Shown: positions 4,040 to 30,421, counted from the first letter of the stretch. The stretch: DNA of 64,000 bases from Bacteroidales bacterium (GCA_021163295.1 JAGGXD010000023.1:12370-76369); one strand, 5' to 3'. Numbers and translations: made by a program. Notes: generated from the sequence alone by a model not told the origin.

Positions 4040-6145
4040 ATGTCTGATAGTTTGAAAACCGACATACAATATCTAAGCGGGGTTGGACCAAAAAGAGCTG
4101 ATTTATTAAGGAAGGAGCTTCAAATCAAATGTTTTGAAGACCTTTTATACTATTTTCCATACAAATATGTTGACAGGTCAAAGTTCTATACTATCAAAGA
4201 AATAAACAGCAGCCTTCCATACATCCAGATCAAAGGTCGTATAACCAACTTTGAAACAGCAGGCTATAAAAGGAACAAAAGACTTGTTGCAAATTTTACT
4301 GATGATACGGGAACTATTGAACTTGTATGGTTTCGTGGTGTTCAATGGATAAAAAATAGTCTTAAAATCGGAAAAGAATATGTAGTCTTCGGTAAACCCG
4401 GGGTTTTCAATAATAGAATAAATATAATCCATCCTGAAGTTGAAGCACAGGAAACGCTGAAAAGTAAGATCAATGCGCCCTTACAATCCTTTTACAATAC
4501 AAGCGAAACACTAAAAAAAGGTTATCTTAATTCAAAAGCAATTCAGAAACTACAAAACAATCTTCTTCAACAGGTTAAAGGAAAAATCAGGGAAACAATG
4601 CCATCATACATGATTAATGAATTAAAACTTTTATCATTGGATGAGGCACTTCTCAATATTCACTTCCCAAAAAATCCCACAATACTAAAAAATGCAGAAT
4701 TCAGACTTAAATTTGAAGAACTTTTTTATATCCAGCTAAACCTGTTTAAACAGAAAAAAACAAGAAGTAAAGAACTGACAGGACATGTGTTCTCAACCGT
4801 AGGTAATAATTTTAACACTTTTTATCATAAACATCTTCCATTCAAATTAACATCAGCCCAAAAAAGAGTACTGAAAGAAATCAGGCAGGATACAGGTTCG
4901 GGGAAACATATGAACAGACTTCTTCAGGGAGATGTCGGTTGTGGAAAAACACTTGTTGCATTAATGAGTATGCTTATTGGACTTGATAATGGCTTCCAGT
5001 CTTGTATGATGGCTCCAACCGAAATACTTGCCAAACAGCATTTCCAGACACTGACAAAAATGCTGGAGAATATGGATATTCAAATTGCACTGCTTACAGG
5101 TTCAACTAAACAATCAGAAAGAAAAGTAATATTTAATAATCTTAAAGAGGGAACACTAAAGATCCTTGTAGGAACACATGCACTAATTGAAGAAACTGTA
5201 AAATTCCAAAATCTCGGTCTTGTTGTTATTGATGAACAGCATCGCTTTGGTGTTGCACAAAGAGCAAAGCTATGGGAAAAGAACAGACAACCTCCCCATA
5301 TTCTGGTAATGACCGCAACACCTATTCCTCGGACACTTGCAATGACGCTTTATGGTGATCTCGAAATATCAGTTATTGATGAACTTCCACCCGGAAGAAA
5401 ATCTGTAATAACAGCACATTATTACGATTCAAAAAGATTAAGACTTTTCAGTTTTATACGCAAACAAATTAAGAAAGGACAACAAATATTTATTGTATAT
5501 CCACTTATCCGGGAATCAGAAAAGATGGATTATAAAGATCTGGAAGATGGCTACGAAGGTATAGTAAGAGAATTTCCACCACCGGAATACGCAGTGAGTG
5601 TTGTGCATGGAAGAATGAAAACCGAAGAAAAAGATATTGCCATGAGGTATTTTGTGAAAGGGCAAACTGATATTATGGTAGCTACAACTGTAATCGAAAT
5701 TGGTGTTGATATACCTAATGCATCCGTAATGGTTATTGAAAGTGCTGAAAGATTCGGCTTATCACAACTTCATCAACTACGGGGCAGGGTTGGCAGAGGA
5801 GCAGATCAATCCTATTGTTTACTTATGACCTCAACGAAACTTACACATGAAGCAAGAAAAAGAATTGAAACGATGGTGGAAACAAATGATGGTTTTGAAA
5901 TTGCTGAAGTTGATCTGAAATTACGCGGACCGGGAGACCTGGAAGGAACACAACAAAGTGGCATTGCATTCAACCTTAGAATTGCCAACCTTGGAAAAGA
6001 CGGACAAATTCTTCAATACGCAAGAGATAAGGCTGAAGAAATAATAGAAAAGGATCCTGAGCTTATTAAACCTGATAATACAATCCTTGTTTCACAATTA
6101 AAAAAGTTGCGAAAAGAAAATATCGACTGGAGTTCAATAAGTTAG
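4040..6145 (+). CDS. recG: ATP-dependent DNA helicase RecG
   Basis: 701 aa. N-terminal wedge/OB region, helicase motifs GDVGCGKT, DEQHRFG, TATPIPRT and QLHQLRGRVGRG. Confidence 0.95.
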   Translation: MSDSLKTDIQYLSGVGPKRADLLRKELQIKCFEDLLYYFPYKYVDRSKFYTIKEINSSLPYIQIKGRITNFETAGYKRNKRLVANFTDDTGTIELVWFRGVQWIKNSLKIGKEYVVFGKPGVFNNRINIIHPEVEAQETLKSKINAPLQSFYNTSETLKKGYLNSKAIQKLQNNLLQQVKGKIRETMPSYMINELKLLSLDEALLNIHFPKNPTILKNAEFRLKFEELFYIQLNLFKQKKTRSKELTGHVFSTVGNNFNTFYHKHLPFKLTSAQKRVLKEIRQDTGSGKHMNRLLQGDVGCGKTLVALMSMLIGLDNGFQSCMMAPTEILAKQHFQTLTKMLENMDIQIALLTGSTKQSERKVIFNNLKEGTLKILVGTHALIEETVKFQNLGLVVIDEQHRFGVAQRAKLWEKNRQPPHILVMTATPIPRTLAMTLYGDLEISVIDELPPGRKSVITAHYYDSKRLRLFSFIRKQIKKGQQIFIVYPLIRESEKMDYKDLEDGYEGIVREFPPPEYAVSVVHGRMKTEEKDIAMRYFVKGQTDIMVATTVIEIGVDIPNASVMVIESAERFGLSQLHQLRGRVGRGADQSYCLLMTSTKLTHEARKRIETMVETNDGFEIAEVDLKLRGPGDLEGTQQSGIAFNLRIANLGKDGQILQYARDKAEEIIEKDPELIKPDNTILVSQLKKLRKENIDWSSIS

Positions 6146-6179
6146 AGCATAGAACACAGTTTAGCAAAATAATTAACAA

Positions 6180-7043
6180 ATGTATTTTTATATTAAACCG
6201 GTAATACTTGGCCTGATGATCCTGTTGCAGGTTTTTCTTCCGGAAATAACCTCGGGCCAAAATGAAAAATGCAATATAATTAACCGTGCATCTGCTCACG
6301 GTGAATCCTTGTCATATATTGTTTCATATAATGTTTTTATTTTCTGGACTGATGTCGGAGTAGTAAATTTCACGGTATCAGAGGCAGAAAAAGATAAACT
6401 CAAACGTCTATATCTTCATGGCACAGGACTAACTTTACCTACCTGGAACTGGTTTTTTAAAGTTGAAGATTCATACGAATCATGGACCGATCCTGTCACC
6501 CTTAAACCTTATGAGTTTAAAAGAGATGTATATGAAGGAGGTTATGAAATAGATATTCATTACAATTTTGACCGGGAACTAAATATCGCCTGGTCAACCT
6601 CAAGCAAAACAAACAAACCGGAATGGAAAGATACTATCGAAATAACCGAATGCACATACGATGTATTATCAATTCTTTACTACACCAGGAATATTGATTA
6701 TTCAGCTTATAATCCGGGTGATACTATTCCTGTCACAATCCTACTGGATAATGAGTTAACCAATATCTATTTTCGCTATCTTGGCAAAGAAAACATCAGA
6801 GTACATGGTTTTGGAAAATTCAGATGTATTAAGTTTAGTGTCTATCTTGTCGAAGGTACTCTTTTTGAAGGAGGTGAAGATATGCAAGTTTGGGTAACAG
6901 ATGATGATAACAGGATACCATTGAAAATTAATTCGCCAATACTTGTTGGTTCAGTGAAAGCCCGGATAATAAGTATTAAAGGGATAATACATCCCTTAAG
7001 TTCAAGAATCTTAAAAAAATCGTATATTCGAAATAATAAATGA
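6180..7043 (+). CDS. DUF3108-like exported protein
   Basis: Signal-like N-terminus and a beta-rich body. The family assignment is by resemblance only. Confidence 0.45.
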   Translation: MYFYIKPVILGLMILLQVFLPEITSGQNEKCNIINRASAHGESLSYIVSYNVFIFWTDVGVVNFTVSEAEKDKLKRLYLHGTGLTLPTWNWFFKVEDSYESWTDPVTLKPYEFKRDVYEGGYEIDIHYNFDRELNIAWSTSSKTNKPEWKDTIEITECTYDVLSILYYTRNIDYSAYNPGDTIPVTILLDNELTNIYFRYLGKENIRVHGFGKFRCIKFSVYLVEGTLFEGGEDMQVWVTDDDNRIPLKINSPILVGSVKARIISIKGIIHPLSSRILKKSYIRNNK

Positions 7044-7057
7044 AATTTAGCGTATCT

Positions 7058-7082
7058 AATCAGTCGGCAGTCCAAAGTCGCC
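7058..7082 (+). repeat. dispersed intergenic element copy a (AATCAGTCGGCAGTCCAAAGTCGCC)
   Basis: Shares AATCAGTC...AGTCCA.A.TC with the copies at 32379 and 45206. Lies just after a stop codon. Confidence 0.8.
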
Positions 7083-7290
7083 ATTTAGTAATCAAAAAAA
7101 CGCAAAGTGTAATGAAATTAGTCATTTTTAATACTGAGCGTTTTGTCGAAGTATAGACATTCCAAATTTTTTACTCTTAGCGCAGTTGAAGGTAAGGCAC
7201 TGAATAATTACATATTATTTTGATTCATTAAAAATTGTCGATATACTGCAAAACCTGACAAACTTAACTTATTTTTCTTCTATTCTTTTT

Positions 7291-7298
7291 TAACTTTG
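7291..7298 (+). promoter_or_regulatory. Bacteroidota -7 box TAACTTTG for the rseC-rnf operon
   Basis: Matches TAnnTTTG. Lies 22 nt upstream of the ATG at 7320. Confidence 0.45.
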
Positions 7299-7319
7299 CT
7301 AACTATTATTTTAGGGTAA

Positions 7320-7742
7320 ATGGGAACATCGAAGGAAATTAAACATCCCGGGGTAATTACGAGTATTGACTTCTCCAAAATAAAGGTCAATATCACAACC
7401 TATTCAGCATGTTCATCATGCGGGGCAAAAGGTATTTGTTCCATATCCGATGTTAAAGATAAGATTGTTGAAGTTCCAAAAACCGGCGATTTTTCTGTCG
7501 GTCAGAAAGTCCAGGTTATTCTGCATCAAACCCTGGGCTTCAAAGCCCTTTATCTTGGTTATGTTCAACCCGTTATCGTAGTATTAATAATTTTAATTTT
7601 CACTAGTTCCATTACCCGGAATGAGGTATTGGCAGGCCTCATTTCCCTGGGAACTCTGGGACCTTACTATCTGATCTTATATTTCTACAGAGAAAAAATC
7701 AGAAATAAATTCACCTTTGCAATCAAGAAACAAGAACAATGA
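7320..7742 (+). CDS. rseC: RseC/MucC family (SoxR-reducing system) protein
   Basis: Cys motif SACSSCGAKGIC, two C-terminal TM helices, and position immediately upstream of rnfB with a 4-nt overlap. Confidence 0.7.
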   Translation: MGTSKEIKHPGVITSIDFSKIKVNITTYSACSSCGAKGICSISDVKDKIVEVPKTGDFSVGQKVQVILHQTLGFKALYLGYVQPVIVVLIILIFTSSITRNEVLAGLISLGTLGPYYLILYFYREKIRNKFTFAIKKQEQ

Positions 7743-8605
7743 GCAGCATATTATTAACAATATTATCTCTCAGTTCTATTGGTATTATAGCTGCTATAAT
7801 ACTTTTCCTGTTTGCACAAAAATTCAAGGTTCTTGAAAATCCGATAATATTTGATGTTGAGGATGCACTGCCTGCTGCTAATTGTGGCGGATGCGGGTAT
7901 CCCGGTTGCAAGAATTTTGCAGAGGCATGTGTAAATTCAGATACTCTTGATGATCTGTACTGTCCGGTAGGCGGACAGGAAACCATGGACATTGTGGCAA
8001 ATCTCCTGGGCAAAGAAGCAAAACAAACTGATCCAAGAGTTGCCGTTATACGATGTTCAGGATCATTTGAGAACAGACCCAGAACAAACTATTACGACGG
8101 TGCTTCATCATGTGCAGTGGCATCCGCATTATATGTCGGTGACACTGATTGTCCGGTAGGATGCCTTGGTATGGATGATTGTGTGGATGTATGTGAATTC
8201 GAAGCAATATATATGAATAGAAAAACCGGCCTTCCGGTTGTAATTGATGAAAATTGCACTGCCTGTGGCGCTTGTGTTGAAGCTTGTCCGAGAGATATTA
8301 TTGAACTGAGAAAGAAAAATAAAAATGACAGACACATATTTGTTTCATGTATTAATACGGAAAAAGGCGGAATTGCTAAGAAATACTGTTCTGTTGCTTG
8401 CATTGGATGTACAAAATGTTTTAAAGTTTGTGAGTTTGAAGCAATCACAATGGGCAATAACCTGGCTTTTATCGATTCAGATATGTGCACACTATGCAGA
8501 AGATGTGTCACTGAATGCCCAACTCATGCAATACTTGAGATCAATTTTCCGCCCAGAAAAATAAAAACGGATAAAGAAAATGCTTTAATGAAACGGGATG
8601 AGTAA
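7739..8605 (+). CDS. rnfB: Rnf electron transport complex subunit B
   Basis: N-terminal TM helix, CGGCGYPGC motif and multiple CxxCxxCxxxCP ferredoxin motifs. Confidence 0.9.
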   Translation: MSSILLTILSLSSIGIIAAIILFLFAQKFKVLENPIIFDVEDALPAANCGGCGYPGCKNFAEACVNSDTLDDLYCPVGGQETMDIVANLLGKEAKQTDPRVAVIRCSGSFENRPRTNYYDGASSCAVASALYVGDTDCPVGCLGMDDCVDVCEFEAIYMNRKTGLPVVIDENCTACGACVEACPRDIIELRKKNKNDRHIFVSCINTEKGGIAKKYCSVACIGCTKCFKVCEFEAITMGNNLAFIDSDMCTLCRRCVTECPTHAILEINFPPRKIKTDKENALMKRDE

Positions 8606-9935
8606 GATGCTAAAAACATTTAGAAAGGGAGGAATTCATCCGCCGGAGTATAAACTCACGGGTAAAAATCCTGTTAAAATATTACCACTCCCGGAGAAAG
8701 TAACTATTCTGCTCTCTCAACATATTGGTGTACCTGCAATACCCGTTGTCAACAAAGGGGATACTGTTAAAGTTGGACAGTTAATTGCACAGGGAAGAGG
8801 ATTTGTGTCTGCCAGTATTCACTCATCAGTTTCGGGGAAAGTTGTTAAAATCGATTCAATACCTGATCATACCGGTTATAAGAAACCTGCAATAGTTATC
8901 GAAGTGGAGGGAGATGAATGGGAAGAAAACATAATTAAATCAACTGATCTCCGAAAAGATATCACACTTTCAAAAGATGAGATATTAGAAAAAATTCGTG
9001 AATCAGGAATTGTAGGATTAGGAGGTGCAGCATTCCCATCACATGTTAAACTTATACTACCTAAGAATAAGAAAGCAGAAACACTAATCATTAACGGGGT
9101 TGAGTGTGAACCATATTTAACTTCTGATCACAGGTTAATGCTTGAATATGGTGAAGAAATGATGGTGGGTATTCATATCCTTATGAAAGTCCTGAATATC
9201 AGGAAAGCTATAATAGGGATCGAAAATAATAAAGCTGATGCTGTTTGTTTTTTAAAGGATATCTCCTCAAAATTTCCGGGAATTGAAGTATATCCTTTAA
9301 AAGTAAAGTACCCGCAGGGAAGTGAAAAACAACTTATTGAAGCTCTGACAGGCAGGGAAGTCCCTTCCCGAAAATTACCTATCGATGTAGGGGTTATTGT
9401 TCATAATGTTTCAACAGCATATGCAGTTTACGAAGCTGTTCAGAAAAACAAACCACTAATAAACAGAATAGTAACCGTTTCGGGTAAATCATTGAAAAAC
9501 CCATCCAATTTTGTTGTCAGGATAGGTACTCCGGTCCGGTTCCTTATTGAAGCAGCCGGCGGTCTTCCGGAAAATACAGGTAAGGTAATAAGTGGCGGAC
9601 TGATGATGGGAAAAACTATCAACTCACTCGATGTACCTGTAATAAAAGGAATGTCTGGAATACTGGTTTTACCTGAAGATGAAACGAAAAGAAAATCAAT
9701 TGAACCCTGCATCCGGTGTTCAAAATGTGTAACCATTTGCCCTATGGGACTTGAGCCGTATTTATTAATGCCATTAACTCAAAATGGAAGTTTTTACAGA
9801 CTGGAAAAACAAATGGTTTTAGATTGTATAGAATGTGGTTCATGCAGCTATATCTGCCCGTCTAACAGACCTTTACTCGACTTTATCAGACTTGGAAAAA
9901 CGGAAGTTACCAAACTTATTAATGAAAGGAAATAA
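8598..9935 (+). CDS. rnfC: Rnf complex subunit C
   Basis: GLGGAAFP nucleotide-binding motif and two C-terminal 4Fe-4S motifs (CIRCSKCVTICP, CIECGSCSYICP). Confidence 0.9.
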   Translation: MSKMLKTFRKGGIHPPEYKLTGKNPVKILPLPEKVTILLSQHIGVPAIPVVNKGDTVKVGQLIAQGRGFVSASIHSSVSGKVVKIDSIPDHTGYKKPAIVIEVEGDEWEENIIKSTDLRKDITLSKDEILEKIRESGIVGLGGAAFPSHVKLILPKNKKAETLIINGVECEPYLTSDHRLMLEYGEEMMVGIHILMKVLNIRKAIIGIENNKADAVCFLKDISSKFPGIEVYPLKVKYPQGSEKQLIEALTGREVPSRKLPIDVGVIVHNVSTAYAVYEAVQKNKPLINRIVTVSGKSLKNPSNFVVRIGTPVRFLIEAAGGLPENTGKVISGGLMMGKTINSLDVPVIKGMSGILVLPEDETKRKSIEPCIRCSKCVTICPMGLEPYLLMPLTQNGSFYRLEKQMVLDCIECGSCSYICPSNRPLLDFIRLGKTEVTKLINERK

Positions 9936-26758: not shown

Positions 26759-26849
26759 TTTTCACCTCCATTTTAACTACATAACATATTAAACATCAGT
26801 AAAAATTAGCATATATTTATTATTTGTAACTATTCAGCTTATTAAGTTT

Positions 26850-26876
26850 AAAGTGACTAAAGTGTCTAAAGTGCCT
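26850..26876. repeat. tandem nonamer tract AAAGTGACT AAAGTGTCT AAAGTGCCT
   Basis: Read directly inside the 405-bp spacer 26759..27163. Confidence 0.9.
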
Positions 26877-27163
26877 TGAGTAGTTTTAGCTAGTAAGGAG
26901 ATGTCGGAAAGTTTAGAAATCTTTTTTTGAATATGTCTAATTATATTATTTTTTGTAAGGAGGTCAACTTTTTCAAACATATTTTTTTACCTCTTATTTA
27001 ATACGTTACGATTTAATTTTATGCATAATACCAAGTTTTAGCCACCGAAAGGCTTAGACGCACAGAACATCAGGATTAAATCAAAACTTTATTGTACGCA
27101 CCGATTATGAGGAATTTACTGAACCACACTTAGGCTAGATACAAACTATTGTTATACTGCAAG

Positions 27164-28225
27164 TTATGAGCCTTCTGTTTCAATATTACTAATAGTTGAA
27201 AAAGCTGATTTAATTAACTCACGATATTCTGAATTTATATAATAATTATTTTTTGTCTCACCAATATACTTCCCATCTGGACCACCAACATATTGACCAC
27301 TACTATTATCAAAACTGATTAATTGCCGTAAATGAGGATTAGCCTTTTTTGTAAGAAACTGAGATATATTGCTAAGATAGCGACCTGCCTGTCCGACATC
27401 TTTACCAATCCCTTTATTATAGAGTTGCTCTTTAATTTCTTCTCTTTGAAATGTTCTGTCTTCGGATATTAGTATTTCAAGAAAAGCAATGAACCTTGGT
27501 GTTAAATCAGAAACTCTACGCAACGTAGTAATTAATCGTTTCTTTAGTTCTTCATTCGGTAAATCGGATTTTTCCAATGAAAAGCTACTTCGAGGAGATC
27601 TTGTAAATCCCTTTTGTTTGGATTCTTTCTTAACTATATAATCTTTCGCTTCAGGTAGAGGAATAATTATCTCTGGTTTTATAAATAGTTGGTGATTGGA
27701 ATCTAAATAGGGTATCAGTTTAACGCATGTTATATCAATTCCATAATCTCTTAACCATAATACTGCAGATATTACATCTGAATGAAATTCCTTAGAACAA
27801 AGTATGATTCTTTGTTTCAAATTTAACTTATCAATTTCTTCATCAATAAATTCTTCTATTTTTAATTGAGCATCATCATCATCTGATTCTAAATAATTTG
27901 CATAATATTGGAAAATATCTTCCAGTAAAAAATTTGAACAGTATGAAACATATTTTATTGCTTGCCATTCAACATCACTTCCAGAATCGTCCCTTTTTAG
28001 TTCAATTACGACTAAAGACGCATCTTTATCAATTGCCAATAAATCAAGTCGTTTCCTAGATGGAAGTTCTAGCTCTTTTGAGATTACTAAAAGTGATTCA
28101 CCTAAAATTTCGGGAGTCTTTTCAATCCACTCTTGAATATCAAAACGTTCCAACAAGTTCAATGAACTATATTTTGTTGGCTCCAATTTTATTAACTTTT
28201 TATTTTCTATATCGACTTTATACAT
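27164..28225 (-). CDS. RecB/NucS-like PD-(D/E)xK nuclease domain protein with a distinct C-terminal domain
   Basis: RLD61LLAID66...VVIE75LK77RD followed by Q88AIKY92 (QxxxY). The C-terminal ~150 aa has a helix-rich, possibly winged-helix segment (RFIAFLEILISEDRTFQREEIKEQLY). Confidence 0.7.
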   Translation of the reverse strand: MYKVDIENKKLIKLEPTKYSSLNLLERFDIQEWIEKTPEILGESLLVISKELELPSRKRLDLLAIDKDASLVVIELKRDDSGSDVEWQAIKYVSYCSNFLLEDIFQYYANYLESDDDDAQLKIEEFIDEEIDKLNLKQRIILCSKEFHSDVISAVLWLRDYGIDITCVKLIPYLDSNHQLFIKPEIIIPLPEAKDYIVKKESKQKGFTRSPRSSFSLEKSDLPNEELKKRLITTLRRVSDLTPRFIAFLEILISEDRTFQREEIKEQLYNKGIGKDVGQAGRYLSNISQFLTKKANPHLRQLISFDNSSGQYVGGPDGKYIGETKNNYYINSEYRELIKSAFSTISNIETEGS

Positions 28226-28315
28226 TACTTAATTTTCTGAATTTTTCTAAAGGTATAACATATAATTCTACTGCAAATTACTATATAATATTTGTAATGT
28301 CTCATTTATTTTTCA

Positions 28316-28942
28316 CTAAAATGGCAAATCATCTTCTTCATTTGAATTCTTTCCCAAATCATACCACCCTGATAATTGTAACCAGCATTTTGGTTCTTCA
28401 TCTTCATTAAAGGTTACCCATCTCGCTAATGAAACTCTCAATAATGTTCCTGCCGGTATAGTATCAACTGTGTCTTCAAATCCTTTGAATTTTATACTTC
28501 TCCAACCAATTGATGATGGATATTGATATCTAATTCCTTTATATTCTTTTCTTTTTAAGTCTCTGTCACTAATCCAAAATCCTACACTGTGCCTTGGTAC
28601 TCCACCATTCTTATTAATGTAACCACTTCCGTTAGGTGTCCACTGAATTAAGCCATCAAATAGTACATCCGGATTACCTTTCCATATTGAAATGTTTCTT
28701 TTCTCAATGAAATCTTTAATTGTAATATTATTCTTTAGTTTTCCTTTTGGCTTTCTACTTTGAATCAATATATCTTCAACGTGAGGTGGTGTATTGTTCG
28801 TTCGTTCTTTATATTCTATTTCCCAAGCTTGTTTAGGTGCTAAGTCAGTATCTCCAGGTTGATTACTACCATTTGAATCAAGTAATCGAACATATCGTCC
28901 TTGTAATGTTATTCCGCCAATACAAACTTGACCATTATTCAT
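28316..28942 (-). CDS. 208-aa protein of unknown function ending in an SSB-like acidic tip (EEDDLPF)
   Basis: Clean ORF 17 nt downstream of the DUF488 genes. Beta-rich, W/G/K-rich body with C-terminus ...GKNSNEEDDLPF. Confidence 0.7.
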   Translation of the reverse strand: MNNGQVCIGGITLQGRYVRLLDSNGSNQPGDTDLAPKQAWEIEYKERTNNTPPHVEDILIQSRKPKGKLKNNITIKDFIEKRNISIWKGNPDVLFDGLIQWTPNGSGYINKNGGVPRHSVGFWISDRDLKRKEYKGIRYQYPSSIGWRSIKFKGFEDTVDTIPAGTLLRVSLARWVTFNEDEEPKCWLQLSGWYDLGKNSNEEDDLPF

Positions 28943-28959
28943 GTTGGTTTTGGAAAGAA

Positions 28960-29454
28960 TTAAAACAATTGCTTTCTTAAATGAACTATATCGTAATTAA
29001 ACTGAGAATTTAATTTTTCTGTTACTATTGACCTATGACATGCTTCTGGTCTTTCTTCAACACAAAAAAGAGCAACTTTACTTGCTCCTATTTCATCAAG
29101 TTTTTCGATAAATGAATCAAAGTCAAAATTCTTTAAAATTTTGTTTATATATTTAATCCTGAAAACCTGACCGAGTTCCTGCCTGTCTCTTTTTAATTCA
29201 CCTTTTTGAGCATCGGCTTCTTTTTGAAGTTCTCTTATTTCTTTTGTTGGTGCAAGCTCAAGAATATGTCCGTATTTTATATCAAGTTCAATTAACTTTT
29301 GTTGAAGGCGATTGCTGTTTACAAAAGCGTATTTTGCCCCACGAACCCCACGCCTTTGTCGAATATCGCAGAATGTGTCAATGTTATTAGCAATAAGTTT
29401 TTGAAAGAACTCATTTTCCGTAGAGCCATAAACTCCGATTGTATAAAATGTCAT
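28960..29454 (-). CDS. DUF488 domain protein (short subtype)
   Basis: MTFYTIGVYG...DIRQRR...ALFCVEERPEACHRSIV shows the conserved N-terminal strand and the C.E..PE.CHR motif of DUF488. Confidence 0.8.
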   Translation of the reverse strand: MTFYTIGVYGSTENEFFQKLIANNIDTFCDIRQRRGVRGAKYAFVNSNRLQQKLIELDIKYGHILELAPTKEIRELQKEADAQKGELKRDRQELGQVFRIKYINKILKNFDFDSFIEKLDEIGASKVALFCVEERPEACHRSIVTEKLNSQFNYDIVHLRKQLF

Positions 29455-30029
29455 ATTGCATCTTGATTATATTTTTTCTTTGAACCAAAAGTCATTTTTT
29501 CACCAAACAAATTGACTGTTCCTTTTGGTGCTACTTCTAACATCACATCGTTTTGGCTTTTGATTATTAGCTGTTTAGATGTATTTTTCGTTCTTGTAAT
29601 ATGGTTTAGGTCAATTCCAAACTTTTTAAGTTCTTCACCGATAAGCTTTGTTCTGTGACATTCTTCCGGCTTACTTTCGCTACACATTATAGCAACTTTA
29701 ATTTTTTTGTTATTTGCAGCAATTAACCTTTGTAAACCATTTTTGAAAAATTCTTTCTCTTTTATTATTTCGTAATCAACATGTCCATTTGTATAACAAG
29801 TTTGGTCATCAGGTAATCCACCTAAAACATCACCCATAAAAGCGTATGCTATTTTCTTTTCTAATAAAGAAATTTTTAAGGAATTCTGGTTGAAATGAGG
29901 ACTGTATTTTGAATATGGTTTTGACCTGATATCAATTAGATAATTAATATCAAAATGTCTTAATTCTTCAATAAAAATCTCAATGTTCTTATTTCCGTGT
30001 CCTATGGAATATATTGTTGACTTTTCCAT
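29451..30029 (-). CDS. DUF488 domain protein (classic subtype)
   Basis: STIYSIGHGN...LIDIRSKPYSKYSPHFN...AIMCSESKPEECHRTKL. I prefer the ATG at 30029 (MEKSTIYSIGHG); the tracked start is 30044. Its stop overlaps the next gene's start (ATGA). Confidence 0.8.
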   Translation of the reverse strand: MEKSTIYSIGHGNKNIEIFIEELRHFDINYLIDIRSKPYSKYSPHFNQNSLKISLLEKKIAYAFMGDVLGGLPDDQTCYTNGHVDYEIIKEKEFFKNGLQRLIAANNKKIKVAIMCSESKPEECHRTKLIGEELKKFGIDLNHITRTKNTSKQLIIKSQNDVMLEVAPKGTVNLFGEKMTFGSKKKYNQDAI

Positions 30030-30160
30030 ATTACAAATATACATATTTCACACTGAAATTCTTGTTTGTGGCTATTAAGTTGTCAAGATAAAATAAATAA
30101 AAGGGAAATAATAAAAACGATCCTGCTAAACTTAATAATATGGTTCTTTACCCAGGTTGA

Positions 30161-30421
30161 TTATTTATACTTAGTCAAATTGTATCTGTCAGCCAGTTTT
30201 ATTCTTTCATTATCAGGAAGAGATTTAATATAAGCTTTCCAACCGGGACACCAGGTAGCATGCCATCTCCATAACCAACCTAAAAATGATTTTGGATTAT
30301 TATCATATTTTGCACGAAAACCGCAATTCTCACAATTGTTATTTTCCATACCGATTCCTCCATGTATTAATTTTTGTTCTTCAGGGTAATGCATAGTTAT
30401 TCCATTTTTTCCATTTATCAA
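30161..30421 (-). CDS. small Cys/Trp-rich protein, unknown function
   Basis: CENCGFRAKYDNNPKSFLGWLWRWHATWCPGWKAY. The real start may be the internal ATG at 30349 (MENNNCENCG). Confidence 0.5.
   Translation of the reverse strand: MINGKNGITMHYPEEQKLIHGGIGMENNNCENCGFRAKYDNNPKSFLGWLWRWHATWCPGWKAYIKSLPDNERIKLADRYNLTKYK

What the first reader, a model, noticed from the sequence alone, without database searches (positions are those of the whole stretch)
27164..30044. Four-gene cassette (PD-(D/E)xK nuclease, SSB-tip orphan, two DUF488 proteins): candidate uncharacterised nucleic-acid conflict or repair system
Seen in the sequence. Four same-strand genes sit between a 405-bp and a 116-bp non-coding spacer, flanked by unrelated envelope and redox genes.
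- The two DUF488 genes overlap by 4 nt (ATGA at 29451..29454).
- The 208-aa gene follows after 17 nt.
- The nuclease gene follows after 90 nt.
- The nuclease carries D61/D66...E75-L-K77 plus Q88xxxY92, the RecB/Cas4/NucS-type signature, and has a separate helix-rich C-terminal domain.
- The 208-aa protein ends in EEDDLPF.
- Both DUF488 proteins keep the C-x-E-x-x-P-E-x-C-H-R motif.
- Sample 60-nt lines inside the nuclease gene hand-count to 23-30% G+C, against 38% for a recG line.
Established knowledge. PD-(D/E)xK nucleases are common defence effectors. As far as I know, DUF488 has no experimentally defined function.
Inference. The tight spacing suggests one transcription unit acting on DNA or RNA. 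I cannot match this gene combination to any named defence system from memory.
Basis: partly seen in the sequence, partly recalled or inferred. Interest (0 to 1): 0.78.

Follow-up and report, generated by a model that had tools for sequence, protein, structure and literature searches.

The report
Two neighbours, not one four-gene system
The "four-gene cassette" is really two unrelated units lying side by side: a widespread but untested three-gene DNA-handling operon, which carries a start-codon mutation in this genome, and a stand-alone nuclease from a family recently shown to cut chemically modified phage DNA.

Summary
They do not form one system.

**Unit 1, the triad (28316-30044).** DUF488-A, DUF488-B and a tandem-OB protein (Pfam DuOB, not an orphan) form a tightly coupled operon.
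- All three genes are present in the same order in 69 of 80 DuOB loci from several phyla.
- No fourth gene is conserved with them.
- DuOB models as a tandem-OB DNA binder.
- 28 of 76 DuOB proteins end in the SSB-like acidic DDLPF tip. Other lineages fuse DuOB to RecQ, a RecD/Pif1-like helicase or Hsp70-like ATPases.
- Both DUF488 paralogues keep the Cys-His-Arg motif.
- My best guess is that DuOB binds ssDNA or junctions and brings in a helicase for two DNA-end-processing enzymes. This is untested.
- In this window a single SNP at 28977 changes the conserved ATGA stop/start junction to AAGA and removes the DuOB start codon.

**Unit 2, the nuclease (27164-28225).** It matches PADLOC PDC-S11 (E 7.5e-72), which a 2026 preprint validated as "Madara", a modification-dependent nuclease.
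- It has a NucS-like PD-(D/E)xK domain and a winged-helix C-terminal domain, not the EVE-like one reported for Madara.
- It is absent from all 80 other triad loci, and its homologues sit alone.

Interest is moderate.

The parts
29451..30044 (-). DUF488-A (197 aa), first gene of the triad. It carries the C121-x-E-x3-P-x2-C129-H130-R131 motif and a conserved C-terminal extension.
   Evidence: ORF. Pfam DUF488 at 7.9e-19. PADLOC PDC-M45B at 1.7e-48. An orthologue sits upstream of DUF488-B in most DuOB loci. CHR is kept in 72/72 orthologues.
28960..29454 (-). DUF488-B (164 aa here, 159 aa in relatives), second gene. It has the Arg-rich D-I-R-Q-R-R-G-V-R-G segment and the C131-x-E...C139-H140-R141 motif. 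Five extra codons (RKQLF) come from loss of the stop codon.
   Evidence: PADLOC PDC-M19A at 2.5e-18 and PDC-M45C at 1.4e-14. CHR is kept in 67/68 orthologues. A and B are homologous across the domain (hhalign 98.4%). The stop-codon loss is shown.
28975..28978 (-). Ancestral overlapping stop/start junction. It reads ATGA in relatives and AAGA in this window because of a SNP at 28977. The change removes the DUF488-B TGA stop and the DuOB ATG start together.
   Evidence: DNA alignment of the window with L083, L084 and L004. Position. Junctions are ATGA in 20 loci and TAATG in 19; 56 of 69 complete loci overlap or lie within 4 nt.
28316..28942 (-). DuOB tandem-OB protein. The ORF is 208 aa from Met13. 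The conserved N-terminal strand (KAIVLILSKTN) is still in frame at 28943-28975 but has no canonical start codon.
   Evidence: Pfam DuOB at 1.8e-14. Homologues are 220 aa. The AF2 model of the 220-aa form has pLDDT 89.3, with strand 1 at residues 2-12. Fold matches are IFI16 HIN, POT1, CST and RecO OB.
28319..28339 (-). Acidic C-terminal tip EEDDLPF of DuOB, an SSB C-terminus look-alike on a low-confidence, probably flexible tail.
   Evidence: The tip is present in 28/76 full-length DuOB proteins against 1/1902 other ORFs in the same loci. pLDDT falls to 62 in the last block. The tip is replaced by a fused RecQ in L068, L071, L076 and P0359.
28226..28315 (-). 90-nt AT-rich spacer between the triad and the nuclease. 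It is the boundary between the two units.
   Evidence: No terminator-like site and no full Bacteroidota -7 motif were found here, so the transcript structure is undetermined.
27656..28225 (-). Nuclease residues 1-190, a NucS-like PD-(D/E)xK domain with D61, D66, E75-L-K77, Q88 and Y92.
   Evidence: PADLOC PDC-S11 at 7.5e-72 over residues 1-206. Pfam NucS_C at 4.9e-5. Foldseek matches EndoMS/NucS 5gke and 2vld at probability 1.0. The catalytic residues are invariant in 35 homologues.
27176..27556 (-). Nuclease residues 224-350, a conserved helix-rich C-terminal domain with a winged-helix fold. It follows a disordered linker (residues 190-214).
   Evidence: AF2 model. Foldseek matches Fur, MarR and PadR winged-helix proteins at probability 0.8-0.97. 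The GRYLSNISQFLTKKSNPHLRQ block is conserved. The PDC-S11 HMMs do not cover this domain.

Best explanation
The interval holds two independent, horizontally acquired units.

**Unit 1 (28316-30044): the DUF488-A / DUF488-B / DuOB operon.**
- Shown: it is a self-contained three-gene module with overlapping stop/start junctions.
- Inferred: DuOB uses its two OB folds to bind single-stranded DNA or a single-strand/duplex junction.
- Inferred: DuOB couples that site to a DNA helicase. In some lineages the helicase is fused to it (RecQ or RecD/Pif1-like). In about a third of family members DuOB instead carries an acidic DDLPF tip that mimics the SSB C-terminus, the docking peptide for RecQ and other SSB partners.
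- Inferred: the two DUF488 enzymes each keep a Cys-His-Arg site of the rhodanese-phosphatase type. They probably act as a hetero-complex on the exposed DNA end or adduct, by removing or transferring a phosphate.
- Whether the outcome is repair or conflict is open.
- In this genome the module is probably impaired. A SNP at 28977 removed the DuOB start codon and the first beta-strand of the protein.

**Unit 2 (27164-28225): a stand-alone PDC-S11/Madara-family nuclease.**
- It has a NucS-like PD-(D/E)xK domain, a flexible linker and a winged-helix DNA-reading domain.
- Inferred: it works like a type IV (modification- or feature-dependent) restriction enzyme, independently of the triad.
For: **The split into two units.**
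- phmmer with the four window proteins against 80 DuOB loci finds all three triad genes, same order and strand, in 69. The nuclease appears only in the window's own contigs.
- A nuclease family profile at E<=1 finds nothing in those loci either.
- Clustering of neighbours finds no other family in more than 9 of the 80 loci.
- The 131 immediate neighbours fall into 146 Pfam families, none seen more than 3 times.
- Same-strand genes close downstream of DuOB are unrelated to one another: GNAT, L25, GDSL, nitroreductase, AraC, Bro-N.
- The nuclease has more than 1,685 full-length homologues, including Methanobacterium at 66% identity. The ones examined sit alone.
- A close DuOB relative has a TIR gene plus YefM/YoeB in the nuclease's place.

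**The triad mechanism.**
- The DuOB model is confident (pLDDT 89). It matches tandem-OB DNA binders: IFI16 HIN, POT1, CST and RecO.
- Many Trp, Phe, Tyr, Arg and Lys residues are invariant.
- DuOB is fused to full-length RecQ in L068, L071, L076 and P0359. It is fused to a RecD/Pif1-like helicase with a TBP-TOTE domain in P0241, and to Hsp70-like ATPases in P0251 and P0260.
- The tip is specific: 28/76 DuOB against 1/1902 other ORFs.
- SSB partners, including RecQ, RecG and RecO, dock on the SSB C-terminal tip (PMC10164576, PMC11372144, PMC7913777).
- CHR is kept in 72/72 DUF488-A and 67/68 DUF488-B orthologues.
- Junctions overlap or lie within 4 nt in 56 of 69 loci.

**The nuclease.**
- bioRxiv 10.64898/2026.09.05.749240 reports that PDC-S11/Madara restricts glucosyl-hmC T4 but not unmodified-cytosine T4, and that D63A abolishes defence.
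Against: **The triad mechanism.**
- No biochemistry exists for DUF488 or DuOB. Profile searches of the PDB found no relatives.
- About half of DuOB proteins have neither a tip nor a fused motor, and no helicase gene lies nearby. The helicase link is therefore facultative.
- RecQ fusions are few and were seen in Chloroflexota loci.
- The tip could bind any SSB partner, or could act as a decoy.

**The split.**
- The nuclease is adjacent to the triad in both strains of this species.
- No terminator lies in the 90-nt spacer.
- All four genes share low G+C. Co-transfer and co-transcription in this lineage cannot be excluded.

**The nuclease.**
- Its C-terminal domain looks like a winged helix, not the EVE-like fold reported for Madara. 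Its target may therefore differ.
Confidence: 0.55

Rival explanations
1. All four genes form one conflict or repair system transcribed as a unit, with the PD-(D/E)xK nuclease as its effector.
For: - The genes share a strand and are closely spaced.
- No terminator-like site lies in the 90-nt spacer.
- All four genes have low G+C.
- The same arrangement occurs in the sister strain L083.
- Both halves hit PADLOC candidate families.
Against: - The nuclease is absent from all 80 other DuOB loci, by single-sequence and profile searches.
- Nuclease homologues are solitary.
- The position downstream of the triad holds unrelated genes elsewhere.
- PDC-S11/Madara works as a single cloned gene.
Confidence: 0.05
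2. The triad is an anti-phage defence system related to PADLOC PDC-M45. DuOB acts as an SSB-like sensor or decoy for phage DNA or phage proteins, and the DUF488 enzymes are the effectors.
For: - The DUF488 pair hits PDC-M45B/C and PDC-M19A.
- Some immediate neighbours are defence or mobile genes: TIR-TM, a type I S subunit, PDC-S01/S13/M30A, PD-T4-3, MzaA, integrases and Mob.
- The triad abuts cas1-cas2 on the Rhodothermus plasmid.
- A TIR gene and a toxin-antitoxin pair follow it in L084.
- DuOB is fused to a TBP-TOTE 'conflict system' domain and to Hsp70-like ATPases.
- Its distribution is patchy (at least 215 of 185,579 species genomes) and its G+C is low.
- Two independent, probably damaging SNPs in two strains suggest a costly system.
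Against: - Sequence conservation is unusually high for a defence gene: 60-80% identity across classes and phyla.
- Many neighbours are ordinary metabolic or ribosomal genes.
- No PADLOC model recognises DuOB, and no PDC-M45A equivalent is present.
- No obvious toxic effector is present.
- The triad has never been tested.
Confidence: 0.25
3. The triad acts on RNA, for example in tRNA or RNA end healing, rather than on DNA.
For: - OB folds also bind RNA, and IF1/aIF1A appear among the single-OB fold matches.
- From memory of Burroughs & Aravind 2023 (paper not held, so unverified), relatives of DUF488 in the RapZ-C/DUF4326 clade handle RNA or ribose-phosphate substrates.
Against: - The fusion partners are DNA helicases, RecQ with RQC and HRDC domains and RecD/Pif1-like.
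- The tip copies the SSB C-terminus, which organises DNA-metabolism proteins.
- The best full-length fold matches are DNA binders, HIN and POT1.
Confidence: 0.08
4. Whatever its ancestral role, the triad is inactive or decaying in this genome. This is compatible with the best explanation.
For: - The SNP at 28977 destroys the DuOB start and the DUF488-B stop.
- The remaining ORF lacks beta-strand 1.
- The sister strain, which has the intact junction, carries DUF488-B S47I at a residue that is Ser in 69/69 orthologues.
- These are the only two differences inside the triad between strains that are 99.8% identical.
Against: - All three ORFs are otherwise intact.
- Translation from Met13, or from a rare ATT codon, could still give a working protein.
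- Two annotated homologues also start at that Met.
- Only two SNPs are involved, and sequencing error cannot be excluded.
Confidence: 0.4
5. The nuclease is a housekeeping NucS/EndoMS-type mismatch-repair enzyme.
For: - The catalytic domain matches NucS by Pfam, NCBIfam and Foldseek.
- NCBI names it DUF91.
Against: - The NucS equivalog score is 32 bits against a cut-off of 216.
- No NucS N-terminal domain is present.
- The architecture is different, with a winged-helix C-terminal domain.
- The gene has a patchy, cross-domain distribution and lies next to transposases and integrases.
- It hits PDC-S11 strongly.
Confidence: 0.04

Closest known systems
Madara / PADLOC PDC-S11 (bioRxiv 10.64898/2026.09.05.749240)
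   Same: - It is a single-gene system.
- It has an N-terminal NucS-like PD-(D/E)xK domain with the same catalytic Asp (D61 here, D63 in Madara), followed by a linker and a C-terminal DNA-reading domain.
- Five PDC-S11 HMMs match, with E-values down to 7.5e-72.
   Different: - The HMMs cover only residues 1-206 to 1-230 of 353.
- The C-terminal domain here matches winged-helix regulators (Fur, MarR, PadR), not the EVE-like fold reported for Madara.
- The feature of DNA it recognises is unknown.
- The host is a Bacteroidales MAG, and no BREX system is nearby.
NucS / EndoMS mismatch endonuclease
   Same: The catalytic-domain fold and the D...E-x-K...Q-x3-Y motif are shared.
   Different: - The NucS N-terminal DNA-binding/dimerisation domain is missing.
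- The score is far below the equivalog cut-off.
- An extra winged-helix domain is present.
- The gene has a mobile, solitary context.
PADLOC candidate systems PDC-M45 (and PDC-M19)
   Same: - DUF488-A matches PDC-M45B at 1.7e-48.
- DUF488-B matches PDC-M45C at 1.4e-14 and PDC-M19A at 2.5e-18.
   Different: - No PDC-M45A equivalent is present.
- No PADLOC model recognises DuOB, in this or six other clades.
- PDC-M45 itself is an untested candidate. No held paper mentions it.
Bacterial SSB and its C-terminal tip interactome
   Same: - DuOB is an OB-fold protein ending in an acidic D-D-[LI]-P-F peptide on a flexible tail.
- This peptide is the one that docks RecQ, RecG, RecO and other partners (PMC10164576, PMC11372144, PMC7913777).
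   Different: - DuOB is not an SSB-family OB: it has no Pfam SSB hit and has two OB folds in one chain.
- The tail is very short, with no long disordered linker.
- It is encoded in an operon with two enzymes.
- The tip is present in only about a third to a half of family members.
[quoted passage not shown]
   Same: - It covers DUF488 domains with a conserved Cys-containing active site.
- As I recall the abstract, it predicts novel DNA-end processing in nucleic-acid-modifying conflict systems.
- The Pfam DuOB and DUF488-N3a entries probably derive from this work.
   Different: - I could not verify what that paper says about this exact triad, the SSB-like tip or the RecQ fusions.
- The window's DUF488 proteins fall below the DUF488-N3a threshold (19.9 and 23.1 bits against 27).
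Tandem-OB DNA binders (IFI16/AIM2 HIN domain, POT1 DNA-binding domain)
   Same: Two OB folds in one chain. These are the best full-length fold matches (8x70_B at E 8.9e-4; 8sh0 and 8sh1).
   Different: TM-scores are low (0.25-0.35) and sequence identity is 9-13%. This is resemblance in architecture, not family membership.

Membership tests
PDC-S11 / Madara | Match to PADLOC PDC-S11 profile HMMs | tested here: met
   Five PDC-S11 HMMs match at E 7.5e-72 to 4.3e-43. They cover only residues 1-206 to 1-230 of 353.
PDC-S11 / Madara | N-terminal NucS-like PD-(D/E)xK domain with a catalytic Asp (D63 in Madara) | tested here: met
   D61, E75 and K77 are invariant in 35 homologues. Foldseek matches NucS/EndoMS at probability 1.0.
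PDC-S11 / Madara | C-terminal EVE-like modification-sensing domain | tested here: not met
   The C-terminal domain (residues 224-350) matches winged-helix Fur, MarR and PadR proteins at probability 0.8-0.97. No EVE/PUA-like hit appears among the 50 listed matches. The PDC-S11 HMMs do not align there. Model confidence is moderate (pLDDT 75.9), so a divergent relationship is not excluded.
PDC-S11 / Madara | Works as a single gene with no obligate partner | tested here: met
   Homologues are solitary at all ten places examined. None is found in the 80 triad loci.
PDC-S11 / Madara | Restricts phage with modified DNA but not unmodified phage | not testable with these tools
   This needs phage challenge experiments.
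NucS / EndoMS | Full-length match to the NucS equivalog, including the N-terminal domain | tested here: not met
   NCBIfam NF003270 scores 32.1 bits against a cut-off of 216, and only residues 28-96 align. Pfam NucS_C scores 23.7 against 24.
PADLOC PDC-M45 | All three components M45A, M45B and M45C present | tested here: not met
   M45B (1.7e-48) and M45C (1.4e-14) are matched. No M45A hit comes from DuOB, the nuclease or the flanking ORFs.
DUF488 x2 - DuOB triad (operon family defined here from 69 complete loci) | Two DUF488 paralogues and DuOB, all above Pfam thresholds, in the order A-B-DuOB on one strand | tested here: met
   Scores are 68.9, 53.6 and 54.7 bits against cut-offs of 22.2, 22.2 and 27. 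The order matches 69 loci.
DUF488 x2 - DuOB triad (operon family defined here from 69 complete loci) | Cys-His-Arg motif kept in both DUF488 paralogues | tested here: met
   C129-H-R in A and C139-H-R in B. The family keeps it in 72/72 and 67/68 orthologues.
DUF488 x2 - DuOB triad (operon family defined here from 69 complete loci) | Overlapping or abutting DUF488-B stop and DuOB start, giving a 220-aa DuOB with its N-terminal strand | tested here: not met
   The window reads AAGA instead of ATGA at 28975-28978. DuOB restarts at Met13, after a 17-nt gap.
SSB (PF00436-type) | Acidic C-terminal D-D-[IL]-P-F tip | tested here: met
   The protein ends in EEDDLPF. The tip is found in 28/76 DuOB proteins against 1/1902 other ORFs.
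SSB (PF00436-type) | SSB-family OB domain | tested here: not met
   The only Pfam hit is DuOB. No SSB structure appears among the 50 listed fold matches; the nearest is RecO's OB domain.

The most novel reading that the evidence does not exclude
The DUF488-A/DUF488-B/DuOB triad is an uncharacterised, horizontally mobile DNA-processing system.
- It would plug into the host SSB interactome through an SSB C-terminus mimic, or through a fused RecQ or RecD-like helicase.
- It would deliver two Cys-His-Arg enzymes that carry out DNA-end or DNA-adduct chemistry not yet described.
- It may be costly enough to be knocked out repeatedly in natural populations, as the two independent hits in these two strains hint.
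Probability: 0.3. Interest if true: 0.75.

Novelty: new variant of a known kind. Interest (0 to 1): 0.5.

Why it matters
**For the scan.** Adjacency in an AT-rich patch made two unrelated units look like one new system. Co-occurrence across genomes separates them cleanly.

**For biology.**
- The triad is a conserved operon of 805 DuOB clusters spread over many phyla, and it has no experimental function.
- This work gives it a concrete, testable handle. The SSB-like tip and the RecQ or RecD-like fusions point to helicase recruitment. Both DUF488 paralogues look catalytically competent.
- If this holds, it would give DUF488 its first function and show a second protein family using the SSB docking peptide.

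**For the nuclease.** It extends the newly validated Madara family to a winged-helix-bearing subfamily that has crossed between Bacteria and Archaea. This hints that the family swaps its DNA-reading domain.

Tried and rejected
- **PDB sequence searches.** Single-sequence and profile searches for DUF488-A, DUF488-B and DuOB found nothing significant.
- **Phage origin of DuOB.** There was no match in 50,697 phage records or in the viral contig patterns.
- **Separate RecQ gene near DuOB forms that lack a tip or fusion.** None was found.
- **A variable fourth-gene "effector slot" downstream of DuOB.** Rejected, because the close same-strand neighbours are unrelated and often housekeeping.
- **DuOB as PDC-M45A.** Rejected, because seven DuOB clades give no PADLOC hit. 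What PDC-M45A is remains unresolved.
- **Promoters and terminators.**
  - The sigma-70 scan gave no more hits than shuffled sequence (24 against 20.9).
  - There is no terminator in the 90-nt spacer.
  - There is no full Bacteroidota TAnnTTTG motif in either relevant spacer.
  - The operon structure around the nuclease is therefore undetermined.
- **Island boundaries.** The window has no tRNA gene.
- **Strain-level presence or absence of the cassette.** Contigs sharing the flanking 176-aa gene either carry the cassette or end at that gene, so this is uninformative.
- **Literature.**
  - The Burroughs & Aravind 2023 paper is not held.
  - A search pairing DuOB (whole word) with 'OB fold' found no held paper.
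  - No held paper mentions PDC-M45.
  - Statements about the Burroughs & Aravind paper rest on my memory of its abstract.

Full report
**1. Observation**

All four ORFs lie on the minus strand at the stated coordinates:
- DUF488-A at 29451-30044 (197 aa)
- DUF488-B at 28960-29454 (164 aa)
- a 208-aa gene at 28316-28942
- a 353-aa nuclease at 27164-28225

The spacing is as reported: a 4-nt ATGA overlap, a 17-nt gap and a 90-nt gap, with flanking spacers of 405 and 116 bp. These are D61/D66/E75-L-K77/Q88/Y92 in the nuclease, EEDDLPF at the end of the 208-aa protein, and C-x-E-x3-P-x2-C-H-R in both DUF488 proteins.

The cassette is AT-rich. It has 30.8% G+C against 35.6% for the window. The four genes rank 2nd, 4th, 6th and 12th lowest of 58 genes, with GC3 of about 0.2.

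The window comes from a Bacteroidales MAG. The flanks encode membrane, ABC-transporter and oxidoreductase-type proteins.

**2. Family assignments**

| Gene | Pfam | PADLOC |
|---|---|---|
| DUF488-A | DUF488, 7.9e-19 | PDC-M45B, 1.7e-48 |
| DUF488-B | DUF488, 4.5e-14 | PDC-M19A, 2.5e-18; PDC-M45C, 1.4e-14 |
| 208-aa gene | DuOB "dual OB-containing domain", 54.7 bits (cut-off 27) | none |
| Nuclease | NucS_C, 23.7 bits (cut-off 24) | five PDC-S11 HMMs, best 7.5e-72, residues 1-206 to 1-230 only |

- The 208-aa protein is therefore not an orphan.
- NCBIfam's NucS equivalog scores only 32 bits against a cut-off of 216.
- A September 2026 preprint renames PDC-S11 "Madara".
  - The cloned single gene restricts T4 with glucosyl-hmC DNA but not T4 with unmodified cytosine.
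  - D63A abolishes defence.
  - The protein is described as a NucS-like nuclease joined by a linker to an EVE-like C-terminal domain.

**3. Is it one system? Co-occurrence says no**

A scan of species-representative genomes found 215 that encode a DuOB relative, and 80 loci were retrieved. I searched all ORFs in those loci with the four window proteins.
- DUF488-A, DUF488-B and DuOB occur together, in that order and on one strand, in 69 loci. Most of the rest are cut by contig ends.
- The loci come from Bacteroidota, Chloroflexota, Ignavibacteria, Planctomycetota, Methylococcales and others.
- The nuclease was found only in the window's own metagenome contigs. A family profile at E<=1 changed nothing.

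Other evidence points the same way.
- Clustering all neighbours showed no further family in more than 9 of the 80 loci.
- The 131 immediate neighbours fall into 146 Pfam families, none seen more than three times.
- Same-strand genes that follow DuOB closely are unrelated to one another: GNAT, ribosomal L25, GDSL lipase, nitroreductase, AraC and Bro-N.
- The nuclease has more than 1,685 full-length homologues at 63-76% identity among those listed. They include Chloroflexi, Nitrospirae and an archaeon, Methanobacterium.
- At the ten places inspected the nuclease gene sits alone, next to transposases, integrases or ordinary genes.
- In a relative whose DuOB is 85% identical, the position after the triad holds a TIR-domain gene and a YefM/YoeB pair.

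The four-gene arrangement is shared only with a 99.8%-identical sister strain.

**4. The triad**

*Operon structure.* The DUF488-B stop and the DuOB start overlap or lie within 4 nt in 56 of 69 complete loci. The junction is ATGA in 20 loci and TAATG in 19. This suggests translational coupling and hence a protein complex.

*DUF488 pair.*
- The two paralogues are homologous over the whole domain (hhalign 98.4%).
- Each has its own conserved signature.
- CHR is kept in 72/72 DUF488-A and 67/68 DUF488-B orthologues. This is a pair of apparently active enzymes, not an active/inactive pair.

*DuOB fold.*
- The 220-aa form models with high confidence (pLDDT 89.3, pTM 0.83) as an almost all-beta protein.
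- Its best PDB matches are tandem-OB DNA binders: the IFI16 HIN domain, the POT1 DNA-binding domain and CST.
- The single OB of RecO matches at probability 1.0.
- TM-scores are low, so this is architectural resemblance only.
- Invariant residues are rich in Trp, Phe, Tyr, Arg and Lys.

*Tip and fusions.*
- The SSB-like tip is specific. An acidic [LI]-P-[FWI] C-terminus occurs in 28 of 76 full-length DuOB proteins (25 with the strict D-[DE]-[LI]-P-F form). It occurs in 1 of 1,902 other ORFs from the same loci.
- The tail is the least confident part of the model.
- In Chloroflexota loci the tip is absent. DuOB is instead fused to the N-terminus of a complete RecQ, with DEAD, Helicase_C, RecQ_Zn_bind, RQC, HRDC and HTH_40 domains. 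The DUF488 pair still lies upstream.
- An exhaustive profile search found 805 DuOB clusters at 50% identity. Among the long forms are:
  - another RecQ fusion
  - a RecD/Pif1-like SF1 helicase with a TBP-TOTE "conflict system" domain
  - two Hsp70-like ATPase fusions
- It is established that SSB-interacting proteins, RecQ among them, dock on the SSB C-terminal tip (PMC10164576, PMC11372144, PMC7913777).
- By fusion ("Rosetta stone") logic, DuOB is a DNA-binding adaptor that supplies a helicase, either covalently or through an SSB-tip mimic.
- This link is facultative. About half of DuOB proteins have neither a tip nor a fusion, and no helicase gene lies nearby.

*Chemistry.* What the DUF488 enzymes do is unknown.
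- No PDB relative was found.
- None of the held papers listed for DUF488 addresses its biochemical function in the title or abstract.
[quoted passage not shown] That abstract predicts novel DNA-end processing in conflict systems, which fits what I see here.

*Context.* The neighbourhood is mixed.
- Some neighbours are mobile or defence genes: integrases, Mob, a transposase, a type I specificity subunit, TIR-TM and several PDC candidates.
- The only plasmid copy lies directly upstream of cas1-cas2 in a type III CRISPR locus.
- Many other neighbours are housekeeping genes.
- The triad's sequence conservation is unusually high for a defence gene.
- I therefore leave repair versus conflict open and lean towards an accessory DNA-processing role.

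**5. State of the triad in this genome**

Relatives encode a 220-aa DuOB beginning MK(A/E)xVLILSKT.
- In the window the junction reads AAGA instead of ATGA, from a single change at 28977.
- This converts the DUF488-B stop to Arg, adding 5 residues.
- It also converts the DuOB ATG to AAG.
- The next start is Met13, so the product would lack beta-strand 1, residues 2-12 of the model.

The sister strain keeps ATGA. It carries S47I in DUF488-B, at a residue that is Ser in 69/69 orthologues. These are the only two differences inside the triad between the strains, and the nuclease ORF is identical in both. This may reflect selection against an active triad. The sample is only two SNPs, and sequencing error is possible.

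**6. The nuclease**

The AF2 model (pLDDT 75.9) shows three parts:
- an N-terminal alpha/beta domain, residues 1-190
- a disordered linker, residues 190-214
- a helical C-terminal domain with a beta-hairpin, residues 224-350

Foldseek matches the first domain to EndoMS/NucS (5gke and 2vld, probability 1.0). It matches the last to winged-helix proteins Fur, MarR and PadR (probability 0.8-0.97).

The C-terminal domain is strongly conserved in the family, but neither Pfam nor the PDC-S11 HMMs cover it. The gene is thus a Madara-family member by its nuclease half, with a different or very divergent DNA-reading half.

From my own knowledge, a PD-(D/E)xK domain paired with a winged helix also occurs in the methyl-directed enzyme DpnI. 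The most likely mechanism is therefore feature-dependent DNA cleavage of the type IV kind. The recognised feature is unknown.

**7. Verdict**

- The interpretation as one novel four-gene system is not supported.
- What remains of interest is (a) a widespread, conserved, untested triad that now has a concrete mechanistic hypothesis, and (b) a winged-helix variant of a just-validated defence nuclease.
- My confidence is about 0.9 for the split, about 0.6 for the nuclease's mode of action and about 0.35 for the triad mechanism.

Noticed in passing
window 28977 (junction 28975-28978): A single SNP turns the conserved ATGA stop/start overlap into AAGA. DUF488-B gains 5 residues, and DuOB loses its ATG and its first beta-strand. 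The allele appears in the window and in two ENA assemblies, but not in JGI contig L083.
   Followed up: yes
L083:2017-2496 (equivalent to window 29315): The sister strain with the intact junction carries DUF488-B S47I, at a residue that is Ser in 69/69 orthologues. Each of the two strains thus has a different, probably damaging change in the triad. These are the only two triad differences in 5.9 kb at 99.8% identity.
   Followed up: partly
L089 (Rhodothermus marinus pRMAR01, NC_013502.1) 5914-9687: The only plasmid copy of the triad lies 123 nt upstream of cas1 (525 aa) and cas2 in a type III CRISPR locus with cas6, csx2 and csm6, on the same strand. An SSB-annotated gene lies about 2 kb further upstream. 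This may hint at a link to DNA-end processing during spacer acquisition.
   Followed up: no
L084:1561-5275: In a relative whose DuOB is 85% identical, the triad is followed by a TIR_2/ThsB-like gene, two unknown genes and a YefM/YoeB toxin-antitoxin pair, not by the nuclease.
   Followed up: partly
P0241, P0251, P0260, P0359; L068:7965-11078, L071:7965-10832, L076:7965-9725: DuOB occurs as the N-terminal domain of RecQ, of a RecD/Pif1-like helicase with a TBP-TOTE domain, and of Hsp70-like ATPases. The genomic context of the non-RecQ fusions could not be looked up.
   Followed up: partly
window 28316-28942 (DuOB residues C7, H54, H118, C186): Two Cys and two His are invariant across the DuOB family, in the motifs QxC, PPHVED, HSVGFW and KC[WY]LQLSGW. 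They could form a metal site or even a catalytic centre, so DuOB may be more than a binding module. I could not measure distances in the model.
   Followed up: no
window 27164-28225 and one search hits: The nuclease is 66% identical to a Methanobacterium subterraneum protein and 63-76% identical to the listed hits, which include Chloroflexi and Nitrospirae. In one lineage it sits beside an integrase and MCM genes (L096). This implies recent transfer between Bacteria and Archaea.
   Followed up: partly
window 26834-26980 (-), inside the 405-bp 'non-coding' spacer: Gene callers place a 48-aa ORF (MFEKVDLLTKNNIIRH...) here in both strains (L001 2948-3094, L083 4491-4637), so the spacer may not be entirely non-coding. 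It has no Pfam hit.
   Followed up: no
window 30161-30421 (-): An 86-aa Cys/Trp-rich ORF (CENCGF...WCPGW) lies 116 nt upstream of DUF488-A on the same strand, with a TTG start. It has no Pfam hit on record and no PADLOC hit, is not conserved with the triad elsewhere, and differs by one SNP (30283) between strains.
   Followed up: partly
L015, L021, L033, L070 and P0047: DuOB copies 40-75% identical to the window's occur in MAGs labelled Clostridia, Agrobacterium, Bdellovibrionales and Akkermansia, and in a protein (P0047) annotated Candidatus Dependentiae. This is either wide horizontal transfer or mis-binned Bacteroidota contigs.
   Followed up: no
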